Positions 15,491 to 52,083 of a stretch of DNA of 64,000 bases are shown here, piece after piece. The stretch's first letter is position 1, and the number at the start of each line of letters is the position of its first letter. Location of the stretch: assembly GCA_965247895.1 (NCBI GenBank), contig OZ252046.1, positions 951,140-1,015,139 on the forward strand. Direction: 5' to 3'. The DNA comes from Dehalococcoidia bacterium. Its GTDB lineage: Bacteria > Chloroflexota > Dehalococcoidia > UBA2979. The notes under the pieces are model-generated. The model was not told where the DNA came from, ran no database searches, and worked only from the letters and a program-made list of their open reading frames with translations. Both the position numbers and the translations under genes were made by a program.

Positions 15491-17122
15491 GTGAGCACAA
15501 TAGACGGCGCTATAGACCTCACTATACCTGGGCTATCTGGAAAGCCTTTGAGCATCACAATACAAACTGGTGAATCCATCTTTGTTATGGGTGCGAATGG
15601 AACAGGTAAATCAACTCTCATACATCACCTCAATAACGAGCACAACGCGCGAGCGCGATTCATACCTGCTAATCGTCAAACATGGATGGAATCTAACTCC
15701 GTTACTATGAACTCGCGCGACAAGGAACAGACAGAACGGAATATAAGACAAGGGACCACCCGTGCTGACGCCCGGTTCCGCGACAACTATTCTGGCGCGC
15801 GAGTCAGCTTGTCCATAGCGGAGCTGCTGGCAGCTGAGGCCGCGCGAGATCACGACATCGCGATTGCGATTGATCGCGGGAAGCCCAAACGTGCGCGGAA
15901 GATATCAAGGAACCGTCCGTCGCACTTGAGAACGATTTCTTCGCTCTTACAGTCATCAGGTCTTCCAATCACAATAAGCGCTCACAATGGTGAGGAACTC
16001 CGAGCCGTCAAGCACGGACAAGAGTATAGTATCGAACAACTATCGGACGGTGAGCGCAATGCCTTTTTACTTGCCGCAACCATCCTCACTACCGAACAAG
16101 GAACGCTTTTCCTGTTGGATGAGCCTGAGAGGCATCTGCATAGGTCCATTTCAGGAAGGCTGATTTCGTCGCTCATTGCGGAGCGAGCCGACTGTTCGTT
16201 TGTAATTGCCACACACGACATTACACTTCCGAGCAAGGAAGAGGATGCCAGAGTCATTCTCTTGACGGCTTGTCAATTCAGCAACGGGCAAGCTATCGGG
16301 TGGGATGCGAAGCTCCTTCCGCAGGGCGAAGCCATAGACGAGGATATCACGAGGGATATATTGAGCTCGCGCAAGAGGATTTTGTTCGTCGAAGGCGTGG
16401 ATGGTAGCCTCGATATTGAGCTCTACCGTATCGCCTTCTCCAGCGAGAACGATATTGACGTCGTGCCCAAGGGTGGGTATCCGGCAGTCGAATCTTCGGT
16501 TAGGGCGATCCGCGGGTCCGAAGCGCTCTATTGGATGGAAGCCTTCGGTATTATCGATCGGGATGGCCGCGCAGACGATGAAGTGTCAGCCTTACGCAAG
16601 ACTGGAGTGTACCCGCTGGAGGTGTACTCCGTGGAATCGATCTACTACCATCCAAAAATCCAGAGGGAGGTAGCGGAACACTTATACGAGAGCCCAGAGG
16701 ACAAGGTTACGGCAGCTCGCGCAGCCGCCATCGAAGAGATAGCCAAGCAAAAGGAAGGCTTGGCCACGCGGGCTCTTGAGAGGATGGTGCGCCGAGCTAT
16801 CCTCGAACGAATCCCTGGACGAGAGGCTATCTCGGCAGAACTGTCTGTCCGAATTGAGATCGACATGACGGACCTACCACAAGATCCGCGTGCAGATCTG
16901 GAGCGAGCGATCGACGACAACGATCTCGAGTACATCATGAAGCACTACCCGATTAAGCCGGGCAACGTCCGGGGAGTGATCGCGCGACAACTCGGGTTCA
17001 CGAACCGGACGGCATACGAGCGGAATGTCCGCAAGGTGCTCCGTCACAGGCCTCAAGCGTTGGAGTTCGTCAGGTCCTTGCTTGGAGGCCTCCCTTCGGA
17101 CCTTACCGCTTCAGGGTCATAG
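15491..17122 (+). CDS. Fused ABC-type ATPase + TOPRIM-type nuclease domain protein (OLD / PARIS-AriAB-like), on a low-GC islet
   Basis: Walker A GANGTGKST, ABC signature LSDGERNAF, Walker B LFLLDEPERHLH, H-loop ATHD. The C-terminal half has TOPRIM-like motifs ILFVEGVDG (conserved Glu) and GIIDRDGR (DxD). GC is about 45% against about 70% for the flanks. GTG start. Confidence 0.8.
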   Translation: MSTIDGAIDLTIPGLSGKPLSITIQTGESIFVMGANGTGKSTLIHHLNNEHNARARFIPANRQTWMESNSVTMNSRDKEQTERNIRQGTTRADARFRDNYSGARVSLSIAELLAAEAARDHDIAIAIDRGKPKRARKISRNRPSHLRTISSLLQSSGLPITISAHNGEELRAVKHGQEYSIEQLSDGERNAFLLAATILTTEQGTLFLLDEPERHLHRSISGRLISSLIAERADCSFVIATHDITLPSKEEDARVILLTACQFSNGQAIGWDAKLLPQGEAIDEDITRDILSSRKRILFVEGVDGSLDIELYRIAFSSENDIDVVPKGGYPAVESSVRAIRGSEALYWMEAFGIIDRDGRADDEVSALRKTGVYPLEVYSVESIYYHPKIQREVAEHLYESPEDKVTAARAAAIEEIAKQKEGLATRALERMVRRAILERIPGREAISAELSVRIEIDMTDLPQDPRADLERAIDDNDLEYIMKHYPIKPGNVRGVIARQLGFTNRTAYERNVRKVLRHRPQALEFVRSLLGGLPSDLTASGS

Positions 17123-31192: not shown

Positions 31193-32494
31193 ATGATTCG
31201 GCGCATCGCGATTCAAGGCTACAAGTCACTGCAGGATGTCAACCTGCGCTTGGATCCGCTGACCATCGTCATCGGGCCGAACGCCGCCGGCAAAAGCAAT
31301 CTCCTCGACGCGATCGGCCTGCTCAGCCGCACGGTAGAAGGCGACCTTCAATCCGCGTTCATGGAACACCGTGGCGAGCCTCTGCGCTCGTTCACGTTGG
31401 ATGAGACAGGCATCGAAGGCCTCATGACGCGCGCGAGTGCATCGTTCCGCCTGGACGTTGACGTCGAGCTGTCGAAGGCCACGGTGAATCAGGTGAACCG
31501 GACCATTAACGAGGCGCGCGAGGGCTACGAGCCCTCGCGCGCCCTCGTCCGCGAGACGCTCCTGCGCTACTCACTGGACATGCAGATCCGAACCGACTCA
31601 GGAGTCCTGCAAGTGATCGACGAGTCGCTGCACGCGCTGAATGTGGACCTAGGTGAGAAGCAGTCGCGTCGTCCGTTCCTATCAGCCGAGAACAAGTCCG
31701 GCGGCGTGAAGCGGCTTTCGCTGCGCCTCGAGCGCCAGAGCCACCCCTTCGAGCACGACCTCGGGATGGATCGAACTGTCGTGTCGCTCCCGCACTACGC
31801 GCCGCATCACCCCCACCTGGTGGCGCTCCGTCATGAACTAGCCTCGTGGCGAACCTACTATCTCGAGCCCGAGGCCATGCGCCAAGACTCTTCGCTGCGG
31901 GAGGTTAGGCGCTTACCTCACGATGGATCAGACCTCGCGGCGTTCTACAACACCATGGAGAAGGAGCACTCGCGCGTGTTCGACGCGATGAACCGCGCCC
32001 TGCGCGGCGTGCTGCCGGGGATCGAACGTGTCGGCGTTTCGACCACGGAGTCAGGGCGCCTCCGCCTCTATGTCATCGAACGGGGAGTACGTTTCGAGGC
32101 GAGCGCACTCTCGGAGGGCACGCTCCGTATCCTGGCCCTGATCGGCATCACCAACTCTCCGGAGCCCGCAGCAGTCATTGGCTACGAAGAGCCGGAGAAT
32201 GGTGTACACCCTGCCCGCCTCTCGTGGATCGCCTCGTTGTTCGAGGAAGCGTCTCGTGACGACACAACCCAGTTCATAATCAACACCCATTCGGCACAGT
32301 TTCCCGCGATGTTCTCTGGAGACGAGTCGCTCACCCTTCGTTGCTACAAGGAGAACGGTGTCACGAATTTCGAGGAAATCGACCGCGCACTCCCGTTGCT
32401 TGAGGACCTCGAGATCTCGGCCGCCCTCGACGAGAATCAGCCAACGCCGGTTTCGCCGCTCTCTGCGCGCATCGAGCGGGGCGACTTCCTCTAG
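31193..32494 (+). CDS. AAA_21/AAA_15-type ABC ATPase (OLD / AriA / GajA / RloA-like), first gene of a two-gene cassette
   Basis: Walker A GPNAAGKSN (residues ~28-36). After a ~250-aa insertion: signature-like LSEGTLRILAL, Walker B/D-loop VIGYEEPENGVHP, H-loop NTHS. Lower GC (~58-60%). Confidence 0.8.
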   Translation: MIRRIAIQGYKSLQDVNLRLDPLTIVIGPNAAGKSNLLDAIGLLSRTVEGDLQSAFMEHRGEPLRSFTLDETGIEGLMTRASASFRLDVDVELSKATVNQVNRTINEAREGYEPSRALVRETLLRYSLDMQIRTDSGVLQVIDESLHALNVDLGEKQSRRPFLSAENKSGGVKRLSLRLERQSHPFEHDLGMDRTVVSLPHYAPHHPHLVALRHELASWRTYYLEPEAMRQDSSLREVRRLPHDGSDLAAFYNTMEKEHSRVFDAMNRALRGVLPGIERVGVSTTESGRLRLYVIERGVRFEASALSEGTLRILALIGITNSPEPAAVIGYEEPENGVHPARLSWIASLFEEASRDDTTQFIINTHSAQFPAMFSGDESLTLRCYKENGVTNFEEIDRALPLLEDLEISAALDENQPTPVSPLSARIERGDFL

Positions 32495-35655: not shown

Positions 35656-37826
35656 TCAGGAGCCTCCCGTGCCCGCACTCGGGAGCTCGGGCGCCTTGAG
35701 CGCGCACTCCTCGCGCAACCAGGACGTGACGCCATCGGCCGACACCAGGAGCCAGCCCACGCAGCGCCCAACTCCCTGACCGAGTACCTCGACCTCCGTG
35801 CCGTCCAGCCAGCCGCCGACGAGTCGTGCACCATCGGCGCAGTCGATACGGTGCGCGACACCCCTGCCGCCCGTATTCCCGATGATCCTCAGAGCCTCCG
35901 GCCCCACTGCCGCAGGCGCCGCGAATTCGACCAGATACGTCCCCCGCACCCACGAGCTGGCGCCGTCCGCCTGGACCCACAGCCAGCCCACGCAGCGCCC
36001 AACCCCGTGCGCGAGCGCCTCGACCTGCGTGTCGTCCAGCCAGCCGCCGCCGTCCGAGCGTCGCGCATCATCGGCACAGTCGTCGCGCTGCGAGACGCCG
36101 TCGCCGCCGGTATTCCCAATCAGCCACCAGATCGTCGGGGCCAGCGCGGGAACACCGCCCGAGTCGACGACCTGCTCGGCGCGCGCCCACGAGCTGACGG
36201 CGTCCGCCCGCACCCAGAGCCAGCCCGTGCAGCGCCCAACCCCCTGAGCGAGAATCTCGACCTCCGTGCCGTCCGGCCAGACGCCGCCGTCCGAGCCTCG
36301 CGCATCCTCGGCACAGTCGCTGCGGTGCGAGACGCCCTCGCCGCCCGTGTTGCCGATCAGCCTGCGTGGCCCCGGATCCGGCGGCTCGACCGGCTCCGCT
36401 GTCTCGACCGGCTCCGCCGGCTCGTCCGGCTCCAGCGTCCCGTCCGGCTCCGCTGTCTCGACCGGCTCCGCTGTCTCGACCGGCTCCGCTGTCTCGACCG
36501 GCTCCGCTGGCTCGTCGGGCTCCGCTGGCTCGCCGGGCTCCGCTGGCTCGTCGGGCTCCGCTGGCTCGTCGGGCTCCGCTGTCTCGACCGGCTCCGCTGT
36601 CTCGACCGGCTCCGCTGTCTCGACCGGCTCCGCTGTCGCCACCGGCTCCGCTGTCTCGACCGGCTCCGCTGTCTCGACCGGCTCCGCTGTCTCGACCGGC
36701 TCCGCTGTCTCGACCGGCTCCGCCGTCTCGACCGGCTCCGCTGCATCTTCGCGGCCTGGAGGGTGCATGATTCGCACTCGGTAGACACGCGAGCGATGAC
36801 CATCTTCGGAGGTGACGGTGACCGTGATCTCCGCGATCTCCTCCAGCGCCAGCTGATGCCCGTTCTCCGGATTCCCATCTGCGTCATCGGGAGCGATCAC
36901 CACGGTCGCTCCCGGCCGCATGGCGCGTGCATCAATGACTACGCGGCCGGTCGCGACCCCTTCGTAGCCGGTGCGGCTGCTTGTGAAGTCGCCAATCTGG
37001 ACGCCGACCAGTCTCAGCAGGGCGAGGCGGGTGTCCGCGCTCGCGCGCAGCTCGGTGGTGAAGTAGACGCGGTCGTCGGCGAGGTCGCCGACGTAGATCA
37101 GGCCTCCATCGGACCAGAGACCTCGCGTCTCTCCGTTCTCGTTGCGGACCCTGAACTCCTCGTCACGGACGCGCACGAGGTCGTCTCCCTGCAACTGATA
37201 CGCGAACAACCTCGCGCTGCCCCTCTCGGAGACCAGGATCACGTACCCATCCGACCAGAGCCCGTGCGGGTCGTTGTTGGCCGGATCGAGCGAGTAGACG
37301 CCGAGCGTTTCCCCGGTCGCAGGTCGTAGCTGAAGAGACTGTCCGTGCCGCCATCCAGCACCCACATCGTGTCGCCGTCGGACCAGATGCCTCGGGCGTG
37401 GGCGTTGCGTTCGTCGAGCCTGATGTCCCGCTCCGGAAGCGGCGTCCTGGTCTCCATGTCGTAGGCGAAGACCCGGTCCTGCCCGCTGTCGGAGACCCAG
37501 GCCGTCTCGCCGTCGGACCACAGGCCGCGCGGGGCCACGTTGCGCCTGGCGAGCTTGAAGTCGAGCTCCTCGAGGCGCTCGCGGCTCTCGATGTCGTAGG
37601 CAAAGACGCCGTCGTCGGCCCCGACTCCGTTCCAGGCTACCCACAGCGTCTCGCCGTCGGACCAGAGTCCCGTCGTGACGCCGCAGCCGGGTTGAGGAGG
37701 GTCAAGACTGCAGGTGGCTCCCGAGGCTGCCGGAACCGCGCCACCCAGATGCGCGAACAGGAGAACCAGAGCAACTATTGCCGAGCTGGCCGCAAGCCGG
37801 GCATACGTCCTCGCCTCGACCGCCAT
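35656..37826 (-). CDS. Giant secreted surface protein B: signal peptide, WSDG beta-propeller blades, 18-bp-unit acidic tandem repeat (PVETAE)n, three C-terminal SH3b-like Cys-containing domains. A single-base frameshift near 37305..37325 splits it into track ORFs 37239..37826 and 35656..37644.
   Basis: N-terminus MAVEARTYARLAASSAIVALVLLFAHLGG. Blades GLWSDGETLWVAWNG...FAYDI and GIWSDGDTMWVLDGGTDSLFSYDL. At the junction one frame reads ...DSLFSYDLRPGKR and the other ...RPATGETLGVYSLDPANNDPHGLWSDG. C-terminal repeats IGNTGG[DE]GVS[HQ]R.DC..DAR.S.GG.W.DGTEVE.L..GVGRC.GWL.V.ADG..SW.R. Confidence 0.65.
36376..36750. repeat. About 20 tandem copies of an 18-bp unit (gtctcgaccggctccgct and variants) encoding (PVETAE)n/(PDEPAE)n inside gene B
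   Basis: Read directly. Coding low-complexity repeat, not CRISPR (units are contiguous, no spacers). Confidence 0.8.
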
Positions 37827-38006
37827 GATTGCAGCCCTTCCTGTCCGGCTTCGGGAGACGCGACACGCACACCCCTCGACCGGTGTACGGGGTGAGGATT
37901 CTAAAGGATCGGCGAGACGCAGCGCGCGGACTCCGGAAAACGCAATTGTCGATGCGTGAGGCGAATCGTGGGCGCGGCACGACCTCTGCCCGGATCGCGG
38001 CCCTCG

Positions 38007-41000
38007 CTAGTCTCCGGCGCCCGTACCCGATCCGGGGGTGTACTCGACCACGTACTGCTCGCGCACCCACGAGGTGACGCCGTCCGCCTGCACACGCAGC
38101 CAGCCGGCGCAGTCGCCGCTGCCCTCCTCGAGGACCTCGACCTCCGTGCCGTCGGACCAGCCGCCGATCTTGGACACCCGCGCGCCATCGGCGCAGGCGC
38201 TGCGGTACGAGACGCCGTCCCCGCCCGTGTTCGCGATCACCATCCAGATCTCCGGCGCCGAGGCCATGCCGCTGGACTCGACCACGTACTGCTCTCGCAC
38301 CCACGAGCTGACGCGGCCAGCCTGCACACGCAGCCAGCCCGCACAGTCGCCGCTGCCCTCCTCGAGTATCTCGACTTCCGTGCCGTCGTACCAGCCGCCG
38401 ATCTCGGAGAGGCGTGCGTCGTCGGAGCACCGGTTGCGGTGCGAGACACCGTCGCCGCCCGTGTTCCCGATCACCCACCGGATCTGCGTGGCGGCAGCGT
38501 CCTCCGTAGCCGGGGTCTCATCCGCAGCCGGGGTCTCATCCGCAGCCGGGGTCTCATCCGCAGCCGGGGTCTCGTCCGCAGCCGGGGTCTCGTCCGCAGC
38601 CGGGGTCTCGTCCGCAGCCGGGGTCTCGTCCGCAGCCGGGGTCTTGTCCGCAGCCGGGGTCTCGTCCGCAGCCGGGGTCTCATCCGCAGCCGGTTCATCG
38701 TCCGTGGCACTCGGCGTCGGCGCAGCCTCGGCGGGCCCGAGCAGGTATTCCTCGCGCACCCACGAGGTGACCCCGTCGGCCTCCGCCCAGAGCCAGCCGG
38801 CGCAGCGCCCGCGGCCGTCGGCGAGCACCTCGATCTCCGTGCCGTCTGCCCAGCCGCCGATCTCGGAGAGGCGCGCGGCATCGGCACACTCGTTGCGGTG
38901 CGAGACGCCATCGCCGCCCGTGCTCCCGATCGCTCGCCCGGTCTGCTCGCCCGCGGCGGCGGGAGAGAACCCGAGAACGTAGTCCGTGTGCACCCACGAG
39001 GTGGCATCGTCGGCCTGTACCAGGAGCCAGCCCTCGCAGCGCCCGCGGCCCTCGCCCAGCACCTCGACTTCCGCGCCGTCCGACCAGCCGCCTACCGCGG
39101 AGACGCGTGCCTCAGCAGCGCAGTCGGTGCGGTGCGAGACGCCGTCGCCGCCGGTGTTGCCGATCACTGGCTGGGCCTGCGTATCCGGCGCCACGCCTGT
39201 ACCTGGCGTTGGCGTCGGGGCCGGCGTGGCGGTGGGCGTGGGGGCCGGCGTGGCGGTGGGCGTGGGGGCCGGCGTGGCGGTGGGCGTGGGGGCCGGCGTG
39301 GCGGTGGGCGCCGGGGCCGGCGTAGCGGTGGGCGCCGGGGCCGGCGTGGCGGTGGGCGCCGGGGCCGGCGTAGCGGTGGGCGCCGGGGTCGGCATCGGCA
39401 GATCGTGCTGGGCGACGAACGGTGTGCTGGGAGGAACGCCCTCGGGGAACAGATCCACGAACGGGCGGTTCACGAGCTCGGTCCCCTCGATGAGCAGCGG
39501 CACCCACTCCCCTTCGGGGTCGTCCCAGACCGCTATCAACTCGAACTCGCGCATGCACTCCTGGAGCTCCGCTACGCTCCCGCCCGCGTAGATGGTGAGA
39601 TCGAAGCGGCCTCCCCTCACGCCGATCAGGCACTCGGCGGGCGTCGGGAGAGCGCGCTGCGCGACGAACGGAGTGCTGGCGGGAACGCCATCGGGGAACA
39701 ACGCGACGAACGGGCGATTCACGAGCTCGGTCCCGCCGATCAGCAGCGGCACCCACTCCCCTTCGGGATCATCCCAGACCGCCATCAACTCGAACTCACG
39801 CATGCAGTCCCTGAGCGCCGCCAGGCTCCCGCCCGCGTAGATGGTGAGGTCGAAGCGGCCTTCGGTCAGGCCAATCAGGCACTCGCCCTCGGGCTCCGCG
39901 ACTACCGGCGCCTCGGTGGGCGTCGGCAGAGCGCGCTGGGCGACGAACGGAGTGCTGGCGGGAACGCCATCGGGGAACAACGCGACGAACGGGCGATTCA
40001 CGAGCTCGGTCCCGCCGATCAGCAGCGGCACCCACTCCCCGTCGGGATCGTCCCAGACCGCCATCAACTCGAACTCGCGCATGCAGTCCCTGAGTTCCGC
40101 CAGGCTCCCGCCCGTGTAGATGGTGAGGTCGAAGCGGCCTTCGGTCAGGCCAATCAGGCACTCGCCCTCAGGCTCCGCGGCTACTGGCTCCTCGATCGGC
40201 GGCTCGACAACCGGGGGCTCCTCGATCGGCGGCTCGACAACCGGGGGCTCCTCGATCGGCGGCTCGACGACCGGGGGCTCTTCGACGGGCGACTCGACAA
40301 CCGCCACAATCTCGATCTGGACGCGGTAGGTCCTGGTCCGGCTGCCGTCCTCCGAGGTCACCGTGACCGTGATCTCGCTGCCGTCCAGCAAGACCTGGTG
40401 CCCGTTCCGCGCGTTGCCGTCCGCGTCGTCGGGCGCGATGACGATCGTGGCGTCGTCCTGCACCGCCACGGCCGTGACCGTCGTCTCGGTCGCGCCATCG
40501 GCGGGGATGCCCGTGTACTCGGTGCGGTAGCTCGCGAACTCGCCGATCTCGACGTCGCTCAGCGTCAGCGAGGCGAGCCGCGCGTCGAACGCGGCCGGCA
40601 TGTTGTAGGTGTAGATCTTGTCGTCGTTGGCATCGACGACGTACATCAGGCCGCCGTCGGACCAGATGCCGCGCGGGCTGTTGTTGCCGGCGCCCCTCAG
40701 CTCCGTGAAGTCCTCGTCGGATTCGCGAGCGAGCCCGCCGTTCTCGAGGTGGTAGGCGAAGATCTTCCGCTCCCCGTCGTCCGAGACCCAGATCGCCACG
40801 CCATCGGACCAGATGCCTTGCGGATCGTCGTTCGCGCTCGCCAGCGCGAACTCGCCGAGGCTTTCGCCGCTGGCGAGGTCATACCTGACGATGATGTCCC
40901 TGCGGGCATCGAGCACCCACATGGCGTCGCCGTCCGACCAGATACCGCGGGCATCGCCGTTCCTGGAGGACAGAACGAACTCGGCATCCCCGACGCGGTC

Positions 41001-44000
41001 GCCGCTCTCCAGGTCGTAGGCGAAGAGCCGCTCCTGGCCGCTGTCCGAGACCCACATCGTCTCGCCGTCGGACCAGACGCCGCGGGGGGCGCGGTTGTCT
41101 TCGGCGAGCTCGAACTCGAGGTCCTCAAGGCGGTCGCCGCTCCAGCGGTCGTAGGCGAAGACGCCGTCGTTGGCGCCGTCGCCGTTCTGGCCCACCCACA
41201 GCACCTCGCCGCGGCCCCAGAGACCCGTCGGATCGTCGTTGGCGGGATCGAGGTCGATGTCACCCGTCACGTGCCACTCGAAGTCCTCGTCGCTCGGGGT
41301 GGGGCCGATGGGGGTAAAGGGGATGAAGGGGATGGTGCCGCCACCGGTGTTGGTGTTCCCGCCGGTGTTCCCGGGGTTGTCCCAGTTGTGCTCGATGACG
41401 TCGGTGACGGTGATCGTCACCGTGATCTCGGCGGTCGCGAGGGACGGATCCGTCGCCGTGACAATCACGGTGTAGCTCGACTTCTCCTCGTAGTCGAGGA
41501 AGGTCGAGGTCCGCAACTGGCCGGACAGCGGGACGATAGCGAAGGAGTCTCCGTCCGTACCGCTGAGGCTGTAGGTCAGCACCTTGCCTTCGGGATCGGT
41601 GGCGATGACCGGGAGCCCGATGTTCACGTTCGGGGCCGTCTCCTCCGGCACGCTGCGCTGTCCCGTTTCGCTCGAGGGGAAGGTGGGGGCGTTGTTGCTG
41701 GTCGGCTCGGCGAGGACCGCGTTCAGTGTCCGCTGGACCTGGTCGGCACCGGTCACCGCGTCGGTGTAGTCGGCGGTGACGCGGATGACGTCGCCGACAT
41801 CGTCCGCGACCGGCGCGTACGAGGACGATGAGGTATTCGGCGTGGTCTGATGCGTCAGGGTCGTCCAGGTGACCTGGTCCGGGGACTTCTCCCAGGTCCA
41901 TGTCGTGACGGACACGCCGCCGTCGGGGTCGTCCACGGTTGCGAGCAGCGCCGTGCCCACCTGCGGTTGCTCCGAGGAGAAGAGGAGCTGGCCGTCGTCC
42001 TCGGCGTTGGTGATCGTGACGGTGATCTGCTCGATCGTCATGCTCTCGCGGTCACCGCTCCCGCTCATCGCCATGACCGTCACGCGATAGACGTTACTGT
42101 CGTCGACGCTGCGGGGATCCTCGTAGTCCGCGCCGTGCGCCGCCCTGAAGGACAGCACTCCGGCACTGGTGATCGCGAACATCCGCCCGTCGTCCTCGGG
42201 AACTGCAGCCTTGAGGATGAAGGTAACGCTGTCCTGGGTATCGGGATCCTCGGCCACCACCGTCCCGACGGCCTGCGTGTTCTCCGCGACGGTGAGTCCG
42301 GGCGTGCTGAACGTCGGGCTGTTGTTGGTGATGTTCTTGACGGGGAGATCGGTCAGCGTCCCCGCAGGAGTTCCGTCGTCGTCCTGCAGCGGGCTCGTCT
42401 GCGGTGGCTGGTAGCTCACGGTGACCGGCTCGCCACCGACGACCGCCGACGCCAGGGTCAGCGTCACCGTCATCCCGCTGACCGACACGGTGTTCACCGC
42501 GCGTGGCACGGTGTCCACCTTCACCGTGTACGCCGGCTCCGAGGCCTCATCGAGCGCCTTGTTGTAGGTGAGCGTCAGCGTTTCGCCGTCCACCACTGCC
42601 GAGTCATTGGTCGAGACAAGCGACGGGGCACGTCGGTGTTGTTCGTGATGGGAACGTCCGTGAGCGGCGCCGCGTCTTCCCCGTCCAGGTCTTGCAGGGG
42701 ATCCGTCGAGGGCGGCACGTCGTAACTCAGACGCACGGTCTGGCCAGCCAACACGGGCGTGGAGAGCATCAGCGTTACGGTCACCTCGCTGATCTCGACG
42801 TCGCTGACCGTGTGCGTCGTGCTGTCGGCGGTCACCGTGTACGTGGTCGTCGCCGGCTCCGAGTCCGGGTCGAGGGCCTCGCTGTACATCAGCGTCAGCG
42901 TGTCGCCGTTGACGACGCCGCTCAGGTGCACGTAGACGGGCGGGTCCGGCTGGGTGCTGTTCGTGACGGGGTGGTCCCTGAGCGCCACCGCGTCGGCGCC
43001 TTCGGAGTCCTGCACCGGGCTCTCGTCCGGCGTGTAGCTCACGAGGGCGATGTCGCTCGCCACCACGGCCGGGTCGAGCGTGAGCTTCACGGTGCTCCCG
43101 CTGACCACCACGGCGGTCACCACGTGGTCACTCGTCGAGTCGTTGACCGTGACGGTGTAGTCCTCCGGGTCCGGCTGCGAGCCGGTGTCGAGCGCCTCGC
43201 TGTAGGTCAGTGTGAGCGTGTCGCCGTCGACGGTCGCGTCGGAGATCGACGGCGGCGCGTTGGTGTTGGTGCTCGACCCGCAGACGGTGAGGCCGTAGAA
43301 CTCGAAGTTGTCGGGGTCGACCATGAACCGAAGGTCGGTGGTCTCGACATCGAGCAAGAGCGGCGGCACGCAGCCTGTCCATGCGTTGGCGCCAAGATTC
43401 AGCCTTCGCAGTCCGGGCAGCAGTTTCTCGAGTTCCGATGGGATCGATCCCGTGAGCAGATTGTCACGCAAGTCCACGTCCGTGAGCGGCAAGCTGCCAA
43501 GTCCCGGTGGGAGAGTCCCCGTGAACCCGTTCCCATAAAGCGTCAAGGATCCCAGCTCAGAAAGTTCGGTGATCTCTGTCGGTATGGGCCCGGAGAATCT
43601 GTTCCCATGCAGGCTCAACGTCATCAGCTTGGTGAGGTTCTTGATCTCGGCCGGGATCGTTCCCGTGAGGCCGAGTCCACCGTGGATGTTCTTGTTGCCG
43701 TGGAGACGCAGCGTGCGCAGCTCCGTGAGGTCCCATATCTCCGACGGTATGTCGCCGTCGAGGTTGTTTCCCCCTAGATCCAGGTGCTGCAACGTCTCTT
43801 TGAGCTTCCCCAGCTCCGACGGGATCCCGGGTTCGTAGTACAGATTCCGGGGGTCGTCGTAGTTGAGTGGACTGCTGAACCTGTTGTAACTGAGATTGAG
43901 CGTTACCAGATTCGGAAGGTCCCCGAGTTCCGGAGGGATCGGACCGGACAGCTGGTTCTGCTTCAGGTTTATCGTGACCAAACCCGTGAGCACCCCGATG

Positions 44001-44452
44001 GCTGCCGGCATCCTCCCGTTTAGCCGGGGCGGCGTCGTAGGAGTGCCACCGCCCGAATCCAGAATTATCGAAGTCACCCGCCTGGGCGAGCCCCCGGCGG
44101 TGATCCCCTCCCACGTCGATATTTCCTTGCTGGCGCTCCAGTCGAGCCGTCGCCGGACGTTGCTGGTGCCCTCGAGCGTCTCCTTCAACCCCGCCAGGAC
44201 CCTGCAATCAGCGACAAGCTCGGCGTTGTCCGCGGCATCCTCGACAATGACGCCGTCGTCGCAAGCTTCCGGATCCACCGGTGTCGCCGGCACATCCACT
44301 GCCAGGGCCGTCTGCTGCACGGCCAACATGGCGACCGCGACCGCGACGACGAGGAGCCAGCGGCTCACGAGGCGCCTCGCAGTGTGCTGTTGCCCGCGAG
44401 TGCGGGGACGCGGGCGTGGACCTGCTCCGCGTCGCGAGGGTCTGCGGCGCAC
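38007..44452 (-). CDS. Giant (~2150 aa) secreted surface protein C. N to C: signal peptide; plant-type LRR N-cap + ~8 LRRs; >=5 Ig-like 'GDTLTLTYSEALD' beta-sandwich repeats; cadherin-like modules; WSDG beta-propeller; (VVEPPIEEPP)n; 3x ~95-aa Cys-containing domain; (TPAPTA)n; (DETPAA)n; 4x SH3b-like domains. A frameshift near 42618..42628 splits it into track ORFs 42575..44452 and 38007..42596.
   Basis: LRRs: LTGLVTINLKQNQLSGPIPPELGD, LTKLMTLSLHGNRFSGPIPTEITE. N-cap CDDGVIV...ADCRVLAGLKETL...W.GIT. Junction: the 625-aa frame ends ...PITNNTDVPRRLSRPMTRQWWTAKR*. The -1 frame reads ...SLVSTNDSAVVDGETLTLTYNKALDE, matching the intact repeat junctions. Propeller blades GVWSDGETMWVSDSGQERLFAYDL and others. 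Confidence 0.65.
38505..38700. repeat. About 11 tandem copies of an 18-bp unit (cagccggggtctcatccg) encoding (DETPAA)n in gene C
   Basis: Read directly. Confidence 0.8.
39405..40160. repeat. Three near-identical ~240-bp tandem copies encoding a ~95-aa Cys-pair domain (AEPEGECLIGLTEGRFDLTIY.GGSLAELRDCMREFELMAVWDDP.GEWVPLLIGGTELVNRPFVALFPDGVP), flanked by (TPAPTA)n at 39196..39396 and a 30-bp x3.5 repeat at 40187..40300
   Basis: Read directly from the translation of the 38007..42596 ORF and the underlying DNA. Confidence 0.75.
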
Positions 44453-44658: not shown

Positions 44659-46982
44659 CTACCCCTCGACGGTCAGCCGCGGCAGGATGCGATCGAGCCA
44701 GCCCGGCAGCCACCAGTTGCGCTCGCCCAGCAGCGCCATCGTCGACGGCACCAGCAGCATCCGCACCACCGTCGCATCGAGGAACACCGCGACGGCGAGG
44801 CCCAGCCCGAACATCTTGAGCGTGCGGAAGTCCTCGAACACGAAGCTGCCGAAGACGACGACCATGATCGCGGCGGCGGCGGTGATCAGTTGCGCCGTCG
44901 AGGCGAGCCCGTCGGCGACGGAGTCGATCGCCTTGCCCGTGCGCTGGTACGCCTCCCGCACGCGTGAGAGCAGGAACACCTCGTAGTCCATCGAGAGCCC
45001 GAAGACGATGGCGAACAGCATCATCGGGATGAACGGGTCGATCGGCCCACCGGCGATGCCGATCAGCGAGCCCAGCCAGCCCCACTGGAAGATCGCCACG
45101 ACCACGCCGAAGGCCGCCGCGATCGAGAGCAGGTTCATGAGCACGGCCTTGATCGGCACGATGATCGAGCGGAAGACAACCATCAGCAGCACGAACGAGA
45201 GCGCGAGCACCGCGCCGACGAACAGCGGGGTGCGCCCGGACAGGTAGGTTGTGAAGTCGATGCTCGATGCCACCGAGCCGGTGACGTTGACGTCCAGCGT
45301 GCTGCCGGCGACGGCGGACGGTACCACCTCGCCGCGCAGATTCCTCACCAGGTCGGACGTTGCCGCGTCCTGCGGGGCCGTCTCCGGGACGACCTCGATC
45401 AGGTAGGCGGAAGCGTTCGCGGGGTCGGAGAGATCGCTCGGCAGCGGGCCGGTCGCGAGCGCCACACCGTCGGCGTTGCCGAGCGCCACGAGGAGCGGCT
45501 CGAGCGCCGCGCGGTCCTCCGCGACAGTGGGCTGGGCGGTGATGATCAGCGGCCCGTTGAAGCCGGGCCCGAAGCCTTCGGCCAGCAGATCGTAGGCGCG
45601 CCGCGTCGTCGTCTCCTCGGGGTTGTTGCTTTCGTCGGGGAAGTTGAGGTGCAGGGAAGGGATGGGGACGGCCAGCGTCAGCAGCAGCACAACTCCGACG
45701 GACAGCCCCACCCAGGGATGCGCCTGGACCAGCCGGCTCCAGCGCCAGGCGAGCGTGCGTTGCAGCGGCCGCGGCGCGCGGCGCGGGACAATCGCTCGCA
45801 GCGGCGGCAGCACGGACCCGGCCAGCAACACCAGCAGCGCCAGTGGCACGCCCAGCAGCAGCGGCCGGAACCCCAGACCCACGCCGAGCAGCGCCATCGC
45901 CCCCAACCCGGCGGCGATCAGTCCTCGCCAGCGCGTGATCTCGATACGCTCGCGTACGAACCCGATCAGCGCGGGCAGCAGCGTCACCGACGCGATCATC
46001 GTCGCGGCAACCGTCAGCGTCGCGCTGATGGCCAGCCCGGTCACGAAGGGAAGCCCGACCAGGACCATGCCAAGCAGCGAGATCACCACCGTCGTCCCGG
46101 CGAAGATGACGGAGCGCCCCGCGGTGTCCATCGCCCGGGAGAGCGGCCACACCGGTCCACCGCCGCCAGTGTGGATCCCGTCGCGGTAGCGGCTGACGAT
46201 GAACAGCGCGTAGTCGATGCCGACGCCGAGCCCGATCATCGCGCCGATCGACACCGCGAACTCGGGAATCGCGAGCAGGTTCGAGAGCAGCGAGGTGAGC
46301 GCCGCGCCGACGCCGACGCCGGCGCCCGCCACTGCGATCGGCAACCCCATCGCCAGCACCGAGCCGAACGCCAGAATCAGCACGACGACGGCGAAGGCGA
46401 GGCCGATGAACTCCGACTCGGGCGTCTCGAACTGCGCAAGCGCGTCACCGGCGATCTCAACCTGCAGGCCGGGCTGATCCGGCGCAAGCGGCCGATCCCG
46501 GCTCCGATCTCCGATGCCCGCCCGAAGTCGACATCCGGGGAGAAGTTCACGTTGGCGTACGCGATGCGGCCGTCGGCGCTGATCTGATGCAGTCCCTCCG
46601 GCGCGTACGGACTGCTTACGGTCACGCCCTCGATCGCCGCGACCTCCTCCAGCATCTGCTCGATGGCGGCGCGCACCTGCGGGTCGTGGACACCGGACTC
46701 GGCGCGGAAGACGATCGCCCCGCTGGCGCGGCTGGCGAGTTCGCCGAAGTGCTCCTCGAGCACCTCCCGTCCGTTGCGGCTATCGGATGCGGGTGCGTCG
46801 AACTGGGTATCGAACCGCGAGCCCACCGCAAACATCGCGACGACCACCGCGGCGATCAGCGCGACCCAGACCGCGAGCGTCTTGCGCGGATTGCTGAAAC
46901 ACCAGACGCCGAGCCGGGCAAGCATCGGATCCCCCGTGCGGGCGGGCGCATCGCCGAGGAGGCAGGCAGAGCGCGCACCCAT
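44659..46982 (-). CDS. MMPL-family (RND superfamily) membrane transporter, interrupted by a single-base frameshift near 46478..46490. Track ORFs are 46377..46982 (N-terminus) and 44659..46383.
   Basis: N-terminus MLARLGVWCFSNPRKTLAVWVALIAAVVVAMFAVG...NFSPDVDFGRASEIGAGI. Then the frame switches to ...LAPDQPGLQVEIAGDALAQFETPESEFIGLAFAVVVLILAFGSVLAMGLPIAV. The Arg/Ser-rich tail of the upstream ORF is junk. Confidence 0.7.
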
Positions 46983-49974: not shown

Positions 49975-52083
49975 ATGCGGATCATTCTCAGATCGTTCTC
50001 GCCCTCCCTCCTCCTAGCGGCCGCGCTGACGGCGAGCGTCCTCGTTGCATGCAGCGGCGGAGCGGACGACCGGCCTCTGCCGCCAGCCACGCCTGCACCG
50101 GCGGCCACCGCCACGTCAGTCGAAGCAGCCTCGCCCGCGCCTGCACCGACAGGCACCGCGACGCCCACCGCCTCGCCCACGCCTGCACCGACCGCCTCCG
50201 CGACGCCCACCACCGCGCCCACCACCGCGCCGATAGCCGCTCCGGCGCCCAGCGCCTCGCCCACGCCCGCGCCGACAGGCACCCCGACGCCCACCGCCTC
50301 GCCCACGCCCGCGCCGACCGCCACCCCGACGCCCACCGCCTCGGCCACGCCCACGCCGGCGGCCACGCCGAGGCCCACCGCCACGGCCACGCCCGCGCCG
50401 ACCGCGACTCCGACGCTCTGCCCACCAACCGCTTCCCCCGAGGCAGCCACATCCACCCCCGCCGCGGCTGCAATGGGGACCGGGTTGGTCAGCCGCGAAG
50501 ACCTCGGCATTCGCGAGGTCGATACCGCCGAGGCGCTCGCGGCTGCTGGTCTCCGCTACGTGCGCTGCGCGGCGGGGGAGGTCGTCTCCCAGGAGGTCGG
50601 GCTCTACCTGCTGGACGTGCAGACGGGCGCCGTGGAGGGGTGGGTGCTGGCATCCGTCGAAGCAGCCGCAGCGGACTCGATGGATGGCTTCGTATCCGCC
50701 GGTGTGAGTCTCTCGCCGGGGAACCGCTTCCTCTCCTTCGATCGATTCCGGCACGACCGCGTGACCGAGCGAACCTTCGAATGGGACGCGCCTCCGCTGC
50801 GACGGTGGGGATCGGACAGCGAGCGGCGGCTGCTCTTCCGGCTGGCGGACGAGGGTGGCGACCTCTTCGTCATCACGGACGGCGCGCTGCAACCCGTGGC
50901 GCAGTTCGCGATCCCCGACGGGCAGGAGGGCCAGCTCCAGTGGCTCAACTTCGAATACCGCTCGCTCGTCGTGCGCGGCCGGGAGCGTGACGGAGGATTG
51001 CACTCCTCCCTGCACTTCTTCGACTTCAGCGAGGAGGCCGTCGGGACCTTCGAGCCGGCCGCAACGCAGCTGCTGCCGGGGACCACGAACACCTGGAGCG
51101 AGGGGCTGTACCGGCTGAGTTCCCTCGGTTCGGCCATCGAGGTGGCGATTGCGGGCCCCGACTCCTGCCACGTCATGCACTACGGCTGGGACGGGGCGAC
51201 GCTGCTCGATGTCTCTGTCCCGGTCGTGCCGCTGTACGGCCGAGGTGACTGCCGCATCTCCCCGGATGGCCGCTGGCTGACGGCGGTTACGGCAACGGGC
51301 GCCAGCGGCACCGCGTGGGGCGCTCGACTCATGGCCGTCTCCATTCTCGATACGACCACCGGCGACGAGGTCTACCGCGTCAAGGGCGTGGACGGCCCCG
51401 GCCGGTGGCTTCCCGACAGCTCCGGCGTCTCCATGAGCACCAGCCGGGGCACGCGGTTCGTGACCCTCGACGGACAGTGGGCGAGCGAGGCGCCGCGACC
51501 GACGAGCGTGAGCGCCAAACCGGCTCCCGCGATCGCCAAGCCGGCCCCGGCCCCGACGCAACCGCAGTACCGGATCGACCACAACCGGAGAAGGGTCACC
51601 GTCCGGGACCATGAGGGGGAAACGCTCGCCTCGCTGCACTTCGTCGAGACCAGCACTCCCTTCTTCGGGTACCCCGGCATCTCCGGCTCGTGGACCGGCA
51701 CGCGTGACGAGCTGCGGGTCCGGGTGTCGATCGTCCCCGGCGGCCGTTGCGGGTGTGGCGGGGACTACAGTGGCCCGCCGCCTCTCGCCCCCGTGATCGA
51801 GTCGCCGCCGTTCGAGGACCGGCTGCAGGTCGAGGTGGTCGTCGACAGCTGCCTGCGCCTGCGCGACGAGCCATCGCTCCGCGCTGCGGTCGTGACCTGC
51901 CTCCCCAACGGCGTCATCGCGGACACGGACGGCTACACCGTCGACTACTACGACTACGTTCCGTGGATGCACGTGCGCACCGCCGACGGCCTCGAGGGCT
52001 GGGCCAGCGCCGACTACCTGCGCTGGGCATCGGACGGCGTGCAGCTCGAGGGCGAGCGGCTGCCCATCAGCGGCGGCGTATAG
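49975..52083 (+). CDS. Secreted lipoprotein with a long Pro/Thr/Ala-rich linker and a C-terminal SH3b-like domain
   Basis: Signal MRIILRSFSPSLLLAAALTASVLVACSGG (lipobox VAC). About 110 aa of (PTPTASPTPAPTA)n. C-terminus ...CLRLRDEPSLRAAVVTCLPNGVIADTDGYTVDYYDYVPWMHVRTADGLEGWASADYL. Confidence 0.7.
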   Translation: MRIILRSFSPSLLLAAALTASVLVACSGGADDRPLPPATPAPAATATSVEAASPAPAPTGTATPTASPTPAPTASATPTTAPTTAPIAAPAPSASPTPAPTGTPTPTASPTPAPTATPTPTASATPTPAATPRPTATATPAPTATPTLCPPTASPEAATSTPAAAAMGTGLVSREDLGIREVDTAEALAAAGLRYVRCAAGEVVSQEVGLYLLDVQTGAVEGWVLASVEAAAADSMDGFVSAGVSLSPGNRFLSFDRFRHDRVTERTFEWDAPPLRRWGSDSERRLLFRLADEGGDLFVITDGALQPVAQFAIPDGQEGQLQWLNFEYRSLVVRGRERDGGLHSSLHFFDFSEEAVGTFEPAATQLLPGTTNTWSEGLYRLSSLGSAIEVAIAGPDSCHVMHYGWDGATLLDVSVPVVPLYGRGDCRISPDGRWLTAVTATGASGTAWGARLMAVSILDTTTGDEVYRVKGVDGPGRWLPDSSGVSMSTSRGTRFVTLDGQWASEAPRPTSVSAKPAPAIAKPAPAPTQPQYRIDHNRRRVTVRDHEGETLASLHFVETSTPFFGYPGISGSWTGTRDELRVRVSIVPGGRCGCGGDYSGPPPLAPVIESPPFEDRLQVEVVVDSCLRLRDEPSLRAAVVTCLPNGVIADTDGYTVDYYDYVPWMHVRTADGLEGWASADYLRWASDGVQLEGERLPISGGV

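What the first reader, a model, noticed from the sequence alone, without database searches (positions are those of the whole stretch)
43000..44452. Plant-specific-type LRR domain with an N-terminal Cys-pair cap in a bacterial giant surface protein
The N-terminal region of gene C has a cap: CDDGVIVEDAADNAELVADCRVLAGLKETLEG...W.GITAG...V.SIILDSGG.

It is followed by 24-residue LRRs of the plant LRR-RLK consensus LxxLxxLxLxxNxLSGxIPxxLGx:
- LTGLVTINLKQNQLSGPIPPELGD
- LTKLMTLSLHGNRFSGPIPTEITE
- LSELGSLTLYGNGFTGTLPPGLGS
- LPLTDVDLRDNLLTGSIPSELEKL

The LRRs end with a Cys-containing C-cap (ANAWTGCVPP). Typical bacterial LRRs (internalin, 22 aa) do not look like this.

This suggests either domain acquisition or an ancient shared LRR class, perhaps mediating binding to a eukaryotic or polysaccharide partner.
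Basis: partly seen in the sequence, partly recalled or inferred. Interest (0 to 1): 0.55.

Follow-up and report, generated by a model that had tools for sequence, protein, structure and literature searches.

The report
Plant-type LRR tip of bacterial adhesin
A giant secreted protein of a Dehalococcoidia (Chloroflexota) bacterium really does start with a leucine-rich-repeat domain of the kind best known from plant receptors. That domain belongs to a family of thousands of bacterial proteins with their own cysteine caps, so it is a well-formed member of a known kind rather than a surprise.

Summary
On the minus strand, 43280-44269 encodes a Cys-pair N-cap, nine LRR units and a Cys-pair C-cap. 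Eight of the nine units fit the plant-specific (PS) motif NxL(S/T)GxIPxxL.

Sequence and fold searches put plant LRR ectodomains first:
- phmmer: FLS2, E = 1.7e-100.
- Foldseek: the top 50 hits are all plant.

- The window's N-cap has no Pfam LRRNT_2 hit and lacks the CxWxGVxC pair. Its Cys pair lies upstream, stapling an N-terminal extension to the cap helix.
- A profile-profile comparison (96.7%) shows the helix/W..WxGV/RVTxLxL core is a distant LRRNT_2 relative.
- This cap type is not rare. Its profile finds 4,442 protein clusters, often several copies per protein, nearly all with PS-LRRs and a GC(I/V)P...C C-cap.
- The named relatives are Chloroflexota. Synteny with Dehalococcoidia relatives, ordinary GC3 and dN/dS of 0.37 argue against recent plant acquisition.

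PS-LRRs in bacteria were published in 2013.

The gene is one ~2,150-aa ORF broken by a 1-nt C-run deletion. Its layout suggests an internalin-like adhesin: LRR tip, Ig-like/cadherin stalk, SH3_3 tail.

The parts
38007..44452 (-). Whole reconstructed gene ('gene C'), ~2,150 aa. It is read as two ORFs in the window (42575..44452 and 38007..42596). The likely true start is the GTG at 44368.
   Evidence: ORF list. The single 1786-aa ortholog with the same domain order and the same neighbours is in L001. The start is inferred from P0001 and L001.
44300..44368 (-). Sec-type signal peptide MSRWLLVVAVAVAMLAVQQTALA, followed by VDVPATP.
   Evidence: Read from the sequence. The same N-terminus occurs in P0001, P0002 and L001. 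No signal-peptide predictor was available, so this is an inference.
44084..44269 (-). N-terminal cap, ORF residues 62-123: Cys64...Cys83, the helix ELVADCRVLAGLKETLEG, L.W....I..WEGI, and then the start of a beta-hairpin.
   Evidence: In alignment A2 of 39 bacterial caps, C3, L18, D21, C22, L25, L42, W44, W53 and G55 are invariant. AF2 gives helix 26-43 and strands 66-69 and 74-79. There is no LRRNT_2 hit. hhalign against LRRNT_2-type caps gives 96.7%.
43352..44083 (-). Nine LRR units, ORF residues 124-367. Six are 23-24 residues long. Three carry loop-out insertions: unit 0 (+7 residues), unit 2 (+15, SSPLNYDDPRNLYYEP) and unit 4 (+7, KNIHGGLG).
   Evidence: Unit table and motif counts are. 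Pfam LRR_1, LRR_8, LRR_4 and LRR_14 match. AF2 shows a repeating strand-strand-short helix unit.
43280..43351 (-). C-terminal cap, ORF residues 368-391. Together with Cys361 of the last LRR (TGCVPP) it ends at ...YGLTVC, giving the second conserved Cys pair.
   Evidence: The family consensus is NxxTGCIPxxLxxVxxxDLxxxGLPxC. The regex G[CS][IVL]P...C matches 89 of 120 hits and 124 of 143 hits.
42698..43255 (-). Two SWM_repeat (Ig-like) domains that follow the LRR domain.
   Evidence: Pfam PF13753 E = 5.1e-28 with 2 stretches, and TIGR02059.
42625..42628 (-). Frameshift site. The window has a C4 run where the 96%-identical L003 has C5. Restoring one C joins ...PITNNTDVP to PSLVSTNDSAVVDGETLTLTY.
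   Evidence: Three-frame translation. Indel list against L003. L001 reads through the site.
42396..42593 (-). Third SWM_repeat.
   Evidence: Pfam PF13753 E = 3.9e-13 on ORF2 residues 2-67.
41403..42314 (-). Cadherin-type and Ig-like stalk domains. The Pfam Cadherin best stretch is ORF2 residues 315-398.
   Evidence: Pfam PF00028 E = 6.6e-15 with 2 stretches.
40602..41264 (-). Five ~44-residue 'GIWSDG..MWV.D...IFAY' repeats, a presumed beta-propeller of unassigned family.
   Evidence: Read from the sequence. No Pfam hit above threshold and no PDB hit.
40314..40577 (-). Cadherin-like beta-sandwich domain.
   Evidence: Pfam PF12733 E = 2.4e-07.
39393..40169 (-). Three ~90-residue Cys-containing repeats (ECLIGL..GRFDLTIY...C..EF...W) of unassigned family, flanked by EP-rich and PT-rich linkers.
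   Evidence: Read from the sequence. No Pfam hit.
38031..39170 (-). Four C-terminal bacterial SH3 (SH3_3)-like modules separated by (ETPAAD)n linkers. They are the presumed envelope-binding tail.
   Evidence: Pfam PF08239 E = 4.6e-10 with 3 stretches, and a weak GW hit at E = 0.0056. The same tail occurs on two other secreted proteins in the window.

Best explanation
The region encodes the distal binding module of a secreted, adhesin-like giant protein of a Dehalococcoidia (Chloroflexota) bacterium.

The module is one copy of a widespread bacterial cassette with three parts:
1. An N-cap. A conserved Cys pair, presumably a disulfide, ties a ~17-residue N-terminal extension to the cap helix. A W..WxG(V/I) loop and a beta-hairpin follow. 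The core is a divergent relative of the plant LRRNT_2 cap.
2. Nine plant-specific-class LRRs (LxxLxxLxLxxNxL(S/T)GxIPxxLGx) forming the curved solenoid with the extra beta-sheet typical of plant ectodomains.
3. A GC(I/V)P...C C-cap with a second Cys pair.

By analogy with other LRR proteins, the concave face and the conserved loop-outs bind a protein or peptide ligand, which is unknown.

The rest of the protein would act as follows:
- SWM and cadherin Ig-like domains, whose number varies between relatives, serve as a stalk.
- The four C-terminal SH3_3 modules hold the protein on the cell envelope.

The overall layout is like Listeria InlB, but it is built from PS-type LRRs.

Shown here: the class of the repeats, the fold, the caps and their conservation, the family size, the gene structure, the orthology and the purifying selection.

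Inferred: secretion, the disulfides, surface anchoring, the adhesin role and the nature of the ligand.
For: Class of the repeats:
- 8 of 9 units fit the PS motif and none fits another class.
- phmmer top PDB hits are FLS2 (E = 1.7e-100), GSO1 and PEPR1.
- The Foldseek top 50 are all plant LRR ectodomains.
- The AF2 model has pLDDT 92.8 and a repeating strand-strand-short helix unit. This matches the beta-beta-3_10 unit described for PS LRRs in PMC5976695.

Caps:
- Both N-cap cysteines are invariant in 39 of 39 caps.
- 122 of 143 N-cap-bearing representatives also carry the GC[IVL]P...C motif.

Family size:
- 2,568 proteins at E <= 1e-5 among 8,000 scored candidates.
- The N-cap profile finds 4,442 50%-identity clusters at E <= 1e-3 and 2,956 at E <= 1e-10, with up to 16-20 copies per protein.

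Bacterial context:
It has the same architecture and an MMPL neighbour.
- L003 is 96% identical in nucleotides and shows the same synteny.
- GC3 is 0.83, within the window's gene range of 0.79-0.96.
- dN/dS is 0.37 against L001.

Architecture:
- SWM_repeat, Cadherin, Cadherin-like and SH3_3 domains.
- SH3_3 tails occur on two more secreted proteins nearby.
- The stalk repeat number varies: 1 in L001, 3 in the window and at least 7 in P0275.
- Among orthologs, variation concentrates at the x-positions 5, 6, 8, 10, 11 and 13 of the beta-strand face, plus positions 17 and 20.
Against: - No ligand, host or habitat is known for this organism.
- No tool here predicts signal peptides, and the model coordinates needed to measure Cys-Cys distances were not available.
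- The SH3_3 tail binding the envelope is an analogy. I recall that cultivated Dehalococcoides lack peptidoglycan (from memory, not checked), so the tail's target is unclear.
- The gene is frame-shifted in the window, so in this genome it may not be expressed as one protein.
- dN/dS of 0.37 shows constraint, but only moderately.
Confidence: 0.65

Rival explanations
1. The LRR domain was recently acquired from a plant or another eukaryote by horizontal transfer, as a eukaryote-derived domain grafted onto a bacterial surface protein.
For: - The best solved-structure matches are all plant.
- Plant proteins appear among the top 120 sequence hits: P0095 at 42% identity over 58% of the query, and P0115.
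- A paper proposing plant-bacteria transfer of PS-LRRs exists (Miyashita et al. 2013, cited in PMC9471246).
- GC is slightly lower across 42001-44000 (0.643 against about 0.70 in neighbouring windows).
Against: - The nearest relatives are bacterial, and in thousands.
- Both caps are of the bacterial type. There is no CxWxGVxC pair and no LRRNT_2 hit.
- The domain is conserved in place in Dehalococcoidia relatives at 60-97% identity with the same neighbours.
- GC3 of 0.83 is ordinary for this window.
- Identity to plant LRRs is only 24-37%, no higher than to unrelated bacterial family members at 36-48%.
- The PDB is heavily biased towards plant representatives of this class.
Confidence: 0.07
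2. The protein is not a host or partner adhesin. It is a structural or self-assembling envelope component, such as an S-layer- or sheath-associated protein or a cell-cell cohesion protein. In that case the LRR would mediate bacterial self-interaction or bacterium-bacterium interaction, or glycan binding.
For: - SWM_repeat was defined on cyanobacterial cell-surface giant proteins (Pfam description).
- A cluster of paralogous SH3-tailed secreted proteins lies next to the gene.
- Many family members carry many cassettes in tandem, which suits multivalent matrix building.
- No host association is demonstrated.
Against: - Nothing distinguishes this reading from the adhesin reading with the present data.
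- Variable concave-face positions among orthologs suit a changing external ligand better than a fixed self-contact. The sample is small, at 11 sequences.
Confidence: 0.2
3. The locus is a decaying pseudogene, and the LRR domain is no longer functional in this genome.
For: The reading frame breaks at 42625-42628.
Against: - The break is a 1-nt difference in a C homopolymer.
- Other genes in the window are broken in the same way: the MMPL gene at 44659-46982 and the N-terminus of the paralog at 35656-37644.
- L003 and P0002 carry different or equivalent C-run breaks. This is the signature of long-read assembly error.
- There are no further stops in either part.
- dN/dS is 0.32-0.42 against L003 and 0.37 against L001.
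Confidence: 0.08

Closest known systems
Plant-specific (PS) class LRR ectodomains of plant receptor kinases and receptor-like proteins (FLS2, GSO1, PEPR1, TMK3, LRX, PGIP)
   Same: - A 24-residue unit LxxLxxLxLxxNxL(S/T)GxIPxxLGx.
- A strand-strand-short helix repeat.
- The best sequence and fold matches.
- A capped solenoid with Cys-stabilised ends.
- Loop-out insertions within repeats. Island regions interrupting plant LRRs are reviewed in PMC4030839 (abstract seen).
   Different: - There is no transmembrane helix or kinase.
- The N-cap lacks the CxWxGVxC pair and fails the LRRNT_2 HMM.
- The C-cap motif is GC(I/V)P...C.
- The domain is followed by bacterial Ig-like, cadherin and SH3_3 domains.
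- The organism is a Chloroflexota bacterium.
Bacterial proteins with PS-type LRRs (Miyashita, Kuroki, Kretsinger & Matsushima 2013, Natural Science 5:580), and the uncharacterised Chloroflexota family found here
   Same: The same cassette of Cys-pair N-cap, PS LRRs and GC(I/V)P..C cap occurs in thousands of metagenomic and MAG proteins. The named ones are Chloroflexota.
   Different: I could not read the 2013 paper; only its title, in reference lists, was available. I therefore cannot say whether this cap variant was described there. The cap has no Pfam-A or NCBIfam model.
Listeria internalins, especially InlB
   Same: The overall logic is the same: signal peptide, capped LRR binding domain at the tip, Ig-like domain directly after the LRR, and a non-covalent SH3-like (GW) tail for surface retention. 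The InlB architecture is recalled from memory. There is a weak Pfam GW hit at E = 0.0056.
'Eukaryotic-like proteins' (LRR, cadherin, fn3) enriched in sponge and other host-associated symbionts
   Same: The protein combines LRR and cadherin Pfam domains, the classes reported as enriched in sponge symbionts and proposed to mediate host recognition (PMC11706023). Several named relatives are Chloroflexota MAGs.
   Different: The habitat of this genome is unknown, and no enrichment or host link was tested here.
Xanthomonas type III effectors with LRRs (XopAE, XopAC/AvrAC, XopL)
   Same: Sub-threshold NCBIfam matches over the LRR region.
   Different: The scores are 20-43 bits against cut-offs of 450-600. 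This protein has a Sec-type signal peptide and extracellular domains, not a T3SS effector layout.

Membership tests
Plant-specific (PS) LRR class | Repeat consensus LxxLxxLxLxxNxL(T/S)GxIPxxLGx with a 24-residue period | tested here: met
   8 of 9 units match the N.[LF](S/T)G.[ILV]P..[LIVM] pattern. Six units are 23-24 residues long and three carry insertions. None matches the typical, bacterial-S, SDS22, RI or CC patterns.
Plant-specific (PS) LRR class | beta-beta-3_10 structural unit (second beta-sheet on the ascending side) | tested here: met
   AF2 DSSP shows a repeating E-E-H pattern, for example 133-135/140-142/H, 227-229/234-238/H241-245 and 251-253/258-260. The definition comes from PMC5976695. 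This is a predicted, not an experimental, structure.
Plant-specific (PS) LRR class | Closest solved structures are PS-class proteins | tested here: met
Pfam LRRNT_2 (PF08263) | HMM score at or above the gathering threshold (20.7 bits) | tested here: not met
   No hit in the whole protein at E <= 1 or in the isolated cap at E <= 10. Only 4 of 39 related caps give a hit, the best at E = 0.011.
Pfam LRRNT_2 (PF08263) | Cys pair in CxWxGVxC just before the first strand | tested here: not met
   The window reads S-T-W-E-G-I-T-A, with no Cys. Its Cys pair is C64 and C83, upstream of and within the helix.
Pfam LRRNT_2 (PF08263) | Remote homology of the helix + W..WxGV + first-strand core | tested here: met
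   hhalign of A2 against A3 (3 plant and 5 bacterial LRRNT_2-type caps) gives 96.7% probability, with columns 19-70 aligned to 9-61. The A2 profile weakly hits the plant TMK3 cap, residues 8-49, at E = 0.013. A3 is small and mostly bacterial, so this is suggestive only.
Bacterial Cys-capped PS-LRR cassette (uncatalogued family defined here) | N-cap C-x(15-20)-DC-xx-L...L.W....I..WxG(V/I) with both Cys | tested here: met
   The window sequence is the first row of A2 and carries all nine invariant residues.
Bacterial Cys-capped PS-LRR cassette (uncatalogued family defined here) | C-cap NxxTGC(I/V)P...C | tested here: met
The window has ANAWTGCVPP...YGLTVC.
Internalin family | 22-residue SDS22-like LRRs with an internalin N-cap | tested here: not met
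Internalin family | Surface retention by LPXTG or GW modules | tested here: inconclusive
   SH3_3 is above threshold (40 bits against a cut-off of 27). GW is below threshold (17.8 bits against a cut-off of 21). I saw no LPXTG motif when reading the C-terminal translation, and no motif search was run. Binding to the envelope was not tested.
Symbiont 'eukaryotic-like proteins' | Encoded by a host-associated bacterium and enriched relative to free-living relatives | not testable with these tools
   The sources carry no habitat information.

The most novel reading that the evidence does not exclude
The Cys-pair cap plus PS-LRR plus GC(I/V)P..C cassette is an old, very large and uncatalogued bacterial domain family centred on Chloroflexota. 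Forms with four Cys (P0041, P0075, P0079) bridge it to the plant LRRNT_2 cap. If the family is older than land plants, the plant LRR-RLK/RLP ectodomain, cap included, could derive from a bacterial cassette of this kind rather than the reverse.
Probability: 0.12. Interest if true: 0.7.

Novelty: new member of a known kind. Interest (0 to 1): 0.3.

Why it matters
For the genome, the result gives a concrete annotation:
- One frame-shifted, ~2,150-aa adhesin-like surface protein whose tip is a plant-type LRR domain.
- A flag that the assembly carries homopolymer indels.

More generally, it shows that 'plant-specific' LRRs with a dedicated disulfide-type cap are common in bacteria. The cap profile finds at least 4,442 clusters at 50% identity. 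The cap has no Pfam or NCBIfam model, so a family model would improve the annotation of thousands of giant metagenomic proteins.

The result bears only weakly on the open question of where plant receptor ectodomains came from. It does not identify a ligand.

Tried and rejected
- **Pfam LRRNT_2 membership.** Tested on the whole protein and on the isolated cap, and rejected.
- **NCBIfam model for the cap.** None found.
- **T3SS effector identity (XopAE, XopAC, XopL).** Only far-sub-threshold LRR matches.
- **Taxonomic range of the cap family.**
  - The second homologous-protein run, with the cap profile, returned only short unnamed fragments.
  - The listing of cluster members gave no names.
  - The genome scan found only two loci because it relies on exact peptide words.
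  - The range beyond Chloroflexota therefore remains unknown.
- **AFDB fold search.** The library was unavailable.
- **PDB sequence searches for other domains.** The SH3-like tail and the WSDG repeat region gave nothing meaningful.
- **The 2013 Miyashita paper.** It is not held in the library.
- **Long antisense ORFs over the gene** (for example 37956..41831 +). Dismissed as high-GC artefacts, because GC3 and the domain hits support the minus strand.
Full report
**1. What is there**

The window is a ~70% GC chromosomal stretch with housekeeping genes such as carB and malic enzyme.

Immediately downstream, and overlapping by 22 nt in another frame, lies ORF 38007..42596 (1529 aa).

These two ORFs are one gene:
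- Three-frame translation shows that the SWM-type repeat pattern continues across the junction...PITNNTDVP | PSLVSTNDSAVVDGETLTLTY.
- The closest relative, L003, is 96% identical in nucleotides. It has CCCCC where the window has CCCC, at 42625-42628.
- A more distant ortholog lies in a Dehalococcoidia MAG (L001).
- L001 is one 1786-aa ORF with the same domain order and the same MMPL neighbour.

'Gene C' is therefore a single ~2,150-aa gene broken by a 1-nt homopolymer deletion. This looks like an assembly problem rather than biology, for three reasons:
- The MMPL gene of the window is also split, and the N-terminus of a downstream paralog reads out of frame.
- L003 carries its own breaks at other sites.
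- P0002 is broken at the equivalent 'TDVPP' C-run.

The likely start is the GTG at 44368 (MSRWLLVV...TALA|VD), as in P0001 and L001.

**2. The LRR domain**

I delimit nine units, ORF residues 124-367, nt 43352-44083.
- Six are 23-24 residues long.
- Three carry loop-outs, of +7, +15 and +7 residues. The +15 loop-out is also present in P0002, P0275 and L001.
- Eight of the nine units fit the PS motif NxL(S/T)GxIPxxL.
- None fits simple patterns for the typical, bacterial-S, SDS22, RI or CC classes.

Database searches agree with that class:
- Pfam gives LRR_1, LRR_8, LRR_4 and LRR_14.
- phmmer against all PDB sequences puts plant receptor ectodomains first: FLS2 at E = 1.7e-100, then GSO1, PEPR1, MIK2 and others.

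An AlphaFold2 model built on 41 sequences has pLDDT 92.8 and pTM 0.91. It shows a strand-strand-short helix unit in most repeats. This is the beta-beta-3_10 unit given for PS LRRs in PMC5976695.

Fold searches with that model give the same picture:
- The Foldseek top 50 PDB matches are all plant LRR ectodomains.

The observation and the 'PS-type' classification are confirmed.

**3. The caps**

The N-cap has three elements: Cys64 and Cys83, an 18-residue helix that contains Cys83, and L.W....I..WEGI followed by a beta-hairpin.

It is not LRRNT_2 by Pfam's test:
- There is no hit in the whole protein at E <= 1.
- There is no hit in the isolated cap at E <= 10.
- The plant CxWxGVxC pair is absent.

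The cap itself is widespread in bacteria:
- The same cap occurs in 63 of the 120 best bacterial homologs.
- In an alignment of 39 caps, both Cys are invariant, together with L18, D21, L25, L42, W44, W53 and G55.

Evidence for a remote link to LRRNT_2:
- The cap profile weakly hits the caps of plant TMK3 (E = 0.013) and TMK1, and a Bacteroides LRR protein.
- hhalign against a small set of LRRNT_2-type caps gives 96.7% probability over the helix-to-first-strand core.
- Some bacterial relatives carry both the upstream Cys pair and the plant-like CxWxGVxC pair (P0041, P0075, P0079). P0041 passes LRRNT_2.

I therefore read the window's cap as a divergent bacterial relative of LRRNT_2, with a different and presumably disulfide-forming Cys pair.

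The C-cap (TGCVPP...YGLTVC) follows the family consensus NxxTGCIPxxL...GLPxC.

**4. How common the cassette is**

- The domain search found 2,568 proteins at E <= 1e-5 among the 8,000 scored candidates. The named ones are Chloroflexota MAGs, one KSB1 bacterium and two plants.
- The 68-position cap profile alone finds 4,442 clusters at E <= 1e-3 among 1.84 billion 50%-identity representatives.
- Of these, 2,956 are at E <= 1e-10 and 328 at E <= 1e-30, with up to 16-20 copies in one protein.
- 122 of the 143 new top representatives carry both cap motifs, and 138 have at least three PS motifs.
- Neither Pfam-A nor NCBIfam models the cap.

That PS-LRRs occur in bacteria is already in the literature. 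[quoted passage not shown] I saw it only as a citation and could not read it.

**5. Acquisition or old family?**

The evidence argues against recent acquisition:
- The cassette sits in the same gene, with the same neighbours, in relatives at 60-97% identity.
- GC3 is 0.83, within the window's range of 0.79-0.96.
- dN/dS is 0.37 against L001 over 390 codons, and 0.32-0.42 against L003 on few changes.
- Identity to plant LRRs (24-37%) is no higher than to unrelated bacterial members (36-48%).

The dominance of plants among structural hits reflects what has been crystallised. The deep direction of transfer is not resolved here.

**6. The whole protein and a mechanism**

After the LRR domain come, in order:
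1. Three SWM_repeat Ig-like domains.
2. Cadherin and Ig-like domains.
3. Five unassigned 'GIWSDG' repeats.
4. A Cadherin-like sandwich.
5. An EP-rich linker.
6. Three unassigned Cys-containing ~90-residue repeats.
7. A PT-rich linker.
8. Four SH3_3-like modules separated by (ETPAAD)n.

Two other secreted proteins in the window end in the same SH3_3-like modules. The number of SWM repeats differs among orthologs: 1, 3 and at least 7.

The most economical reading has three parts:
- An LRR binding tip.
- A stalk of variable length.
- A non-covalent envelope-binding tail.

This is the logic of Listeria InlB (recalled from memory), but built with PS-type LRRs.

Among 11 orthologs, variability concentrates at positions 5, 6, 8, 10, 11 and 13, the x-positions of the beta-strand face, and at positions 17 and 20. 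That is as expected for a ligand-binding LRR surface.

Secretion, the disulfides, anchoring and the ligand are all inferences.

LRR and cadherin 'eukaryotic-like' proteins are reported as enriched in sponge symbionts (PMC11706023). The habitat of this genome is unknown, so that link is only a lead.

**7. Verdict**

- The PS classification is right.
- The LRRNT_2 assignment fails, with remote homology only.
- The implied rarity in bacteria is wrong.

This is a new member of a known kind. There is one modest extra: an abundant, unmodelled cap family. Interest is 0.3.

Noticed in passing
window 42625-42628; 44659-46982; 35656-37644: The assembly appears to carry homopolymer indels:
- Gene C is broken at a C4 run, where L003 has C5.
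- The MMPL gene is split into 574-aa and 201-aa ORFs, whereas L001 has one 793-aa ORF.
- The first ~100 residues of the paralog at 35656-37644 read out of frame.

P0002, from another genome, is broken at the equivalent 'TDVPP' C-run.
   Followed up: partly
window 35656-37644 (-) and 49975-52083 (+): Two further secreted proteins end in the same SH3_3-like modules.
- The first is a paralog of the C-terminal half of gene C, with WSDG repeats, a Cadherin-like domain, a long (AEPVET)n linker and three SH3-like modules.
- The same pair of genes sits next to the ortholog in L001.
   Followed up: partly
window 40602-41264 (-): Five ~44-residue repeats 'P.GIWSDG..MWV.D...IFAY.L..G' look like a beta-propeller. 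They have no Pfam hit above threshold and no PDB sequence match.
   Followed up: partly
window 39393-40169 (-): Three ~90-residue repeats, each with two Cys (ECLIGL..GRFDLTIY..GS.AEL.DCMREFEL.AVWDDP.GEWVPLLI), have no family assignment. L001 has two copies.
   Followed up: no
window 42396-43255 (-); L001 9200-9500; P0275: The number of SWM_repeat stalk domains differs among orthologs: 1 in L001, 3 in the window and at least 7 in P0275. The copy numbers of the PT-rich and ETPAAD linkers also differ between the window and L001.
   Followed up: partly
P0121 (3250 aa), P0161, P0205, P0210 and others: Single giant proteins carry up to 13-20 copies of the Cys-pair N-cap. Each copy is followed by a few PS LRRs, so the cassette is used as a tandem building block.
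   Followed up: partly
window 15491-17122 (+) and 31193-32494 (+): Two ATPase genes with AAA_21/AAA_15 domains, one of them also with DUF4435. These domains are often found in defence-type systems. They are not related to the finding.
   Followed up: no
window 37956-41831 (+): A 1291-aa ORF antisense to gene C, rich in R/G repeats, is an artefact of the high GC content. All domain hits and the codon-position GC pattern support the minus strand.
   Followed up: yes
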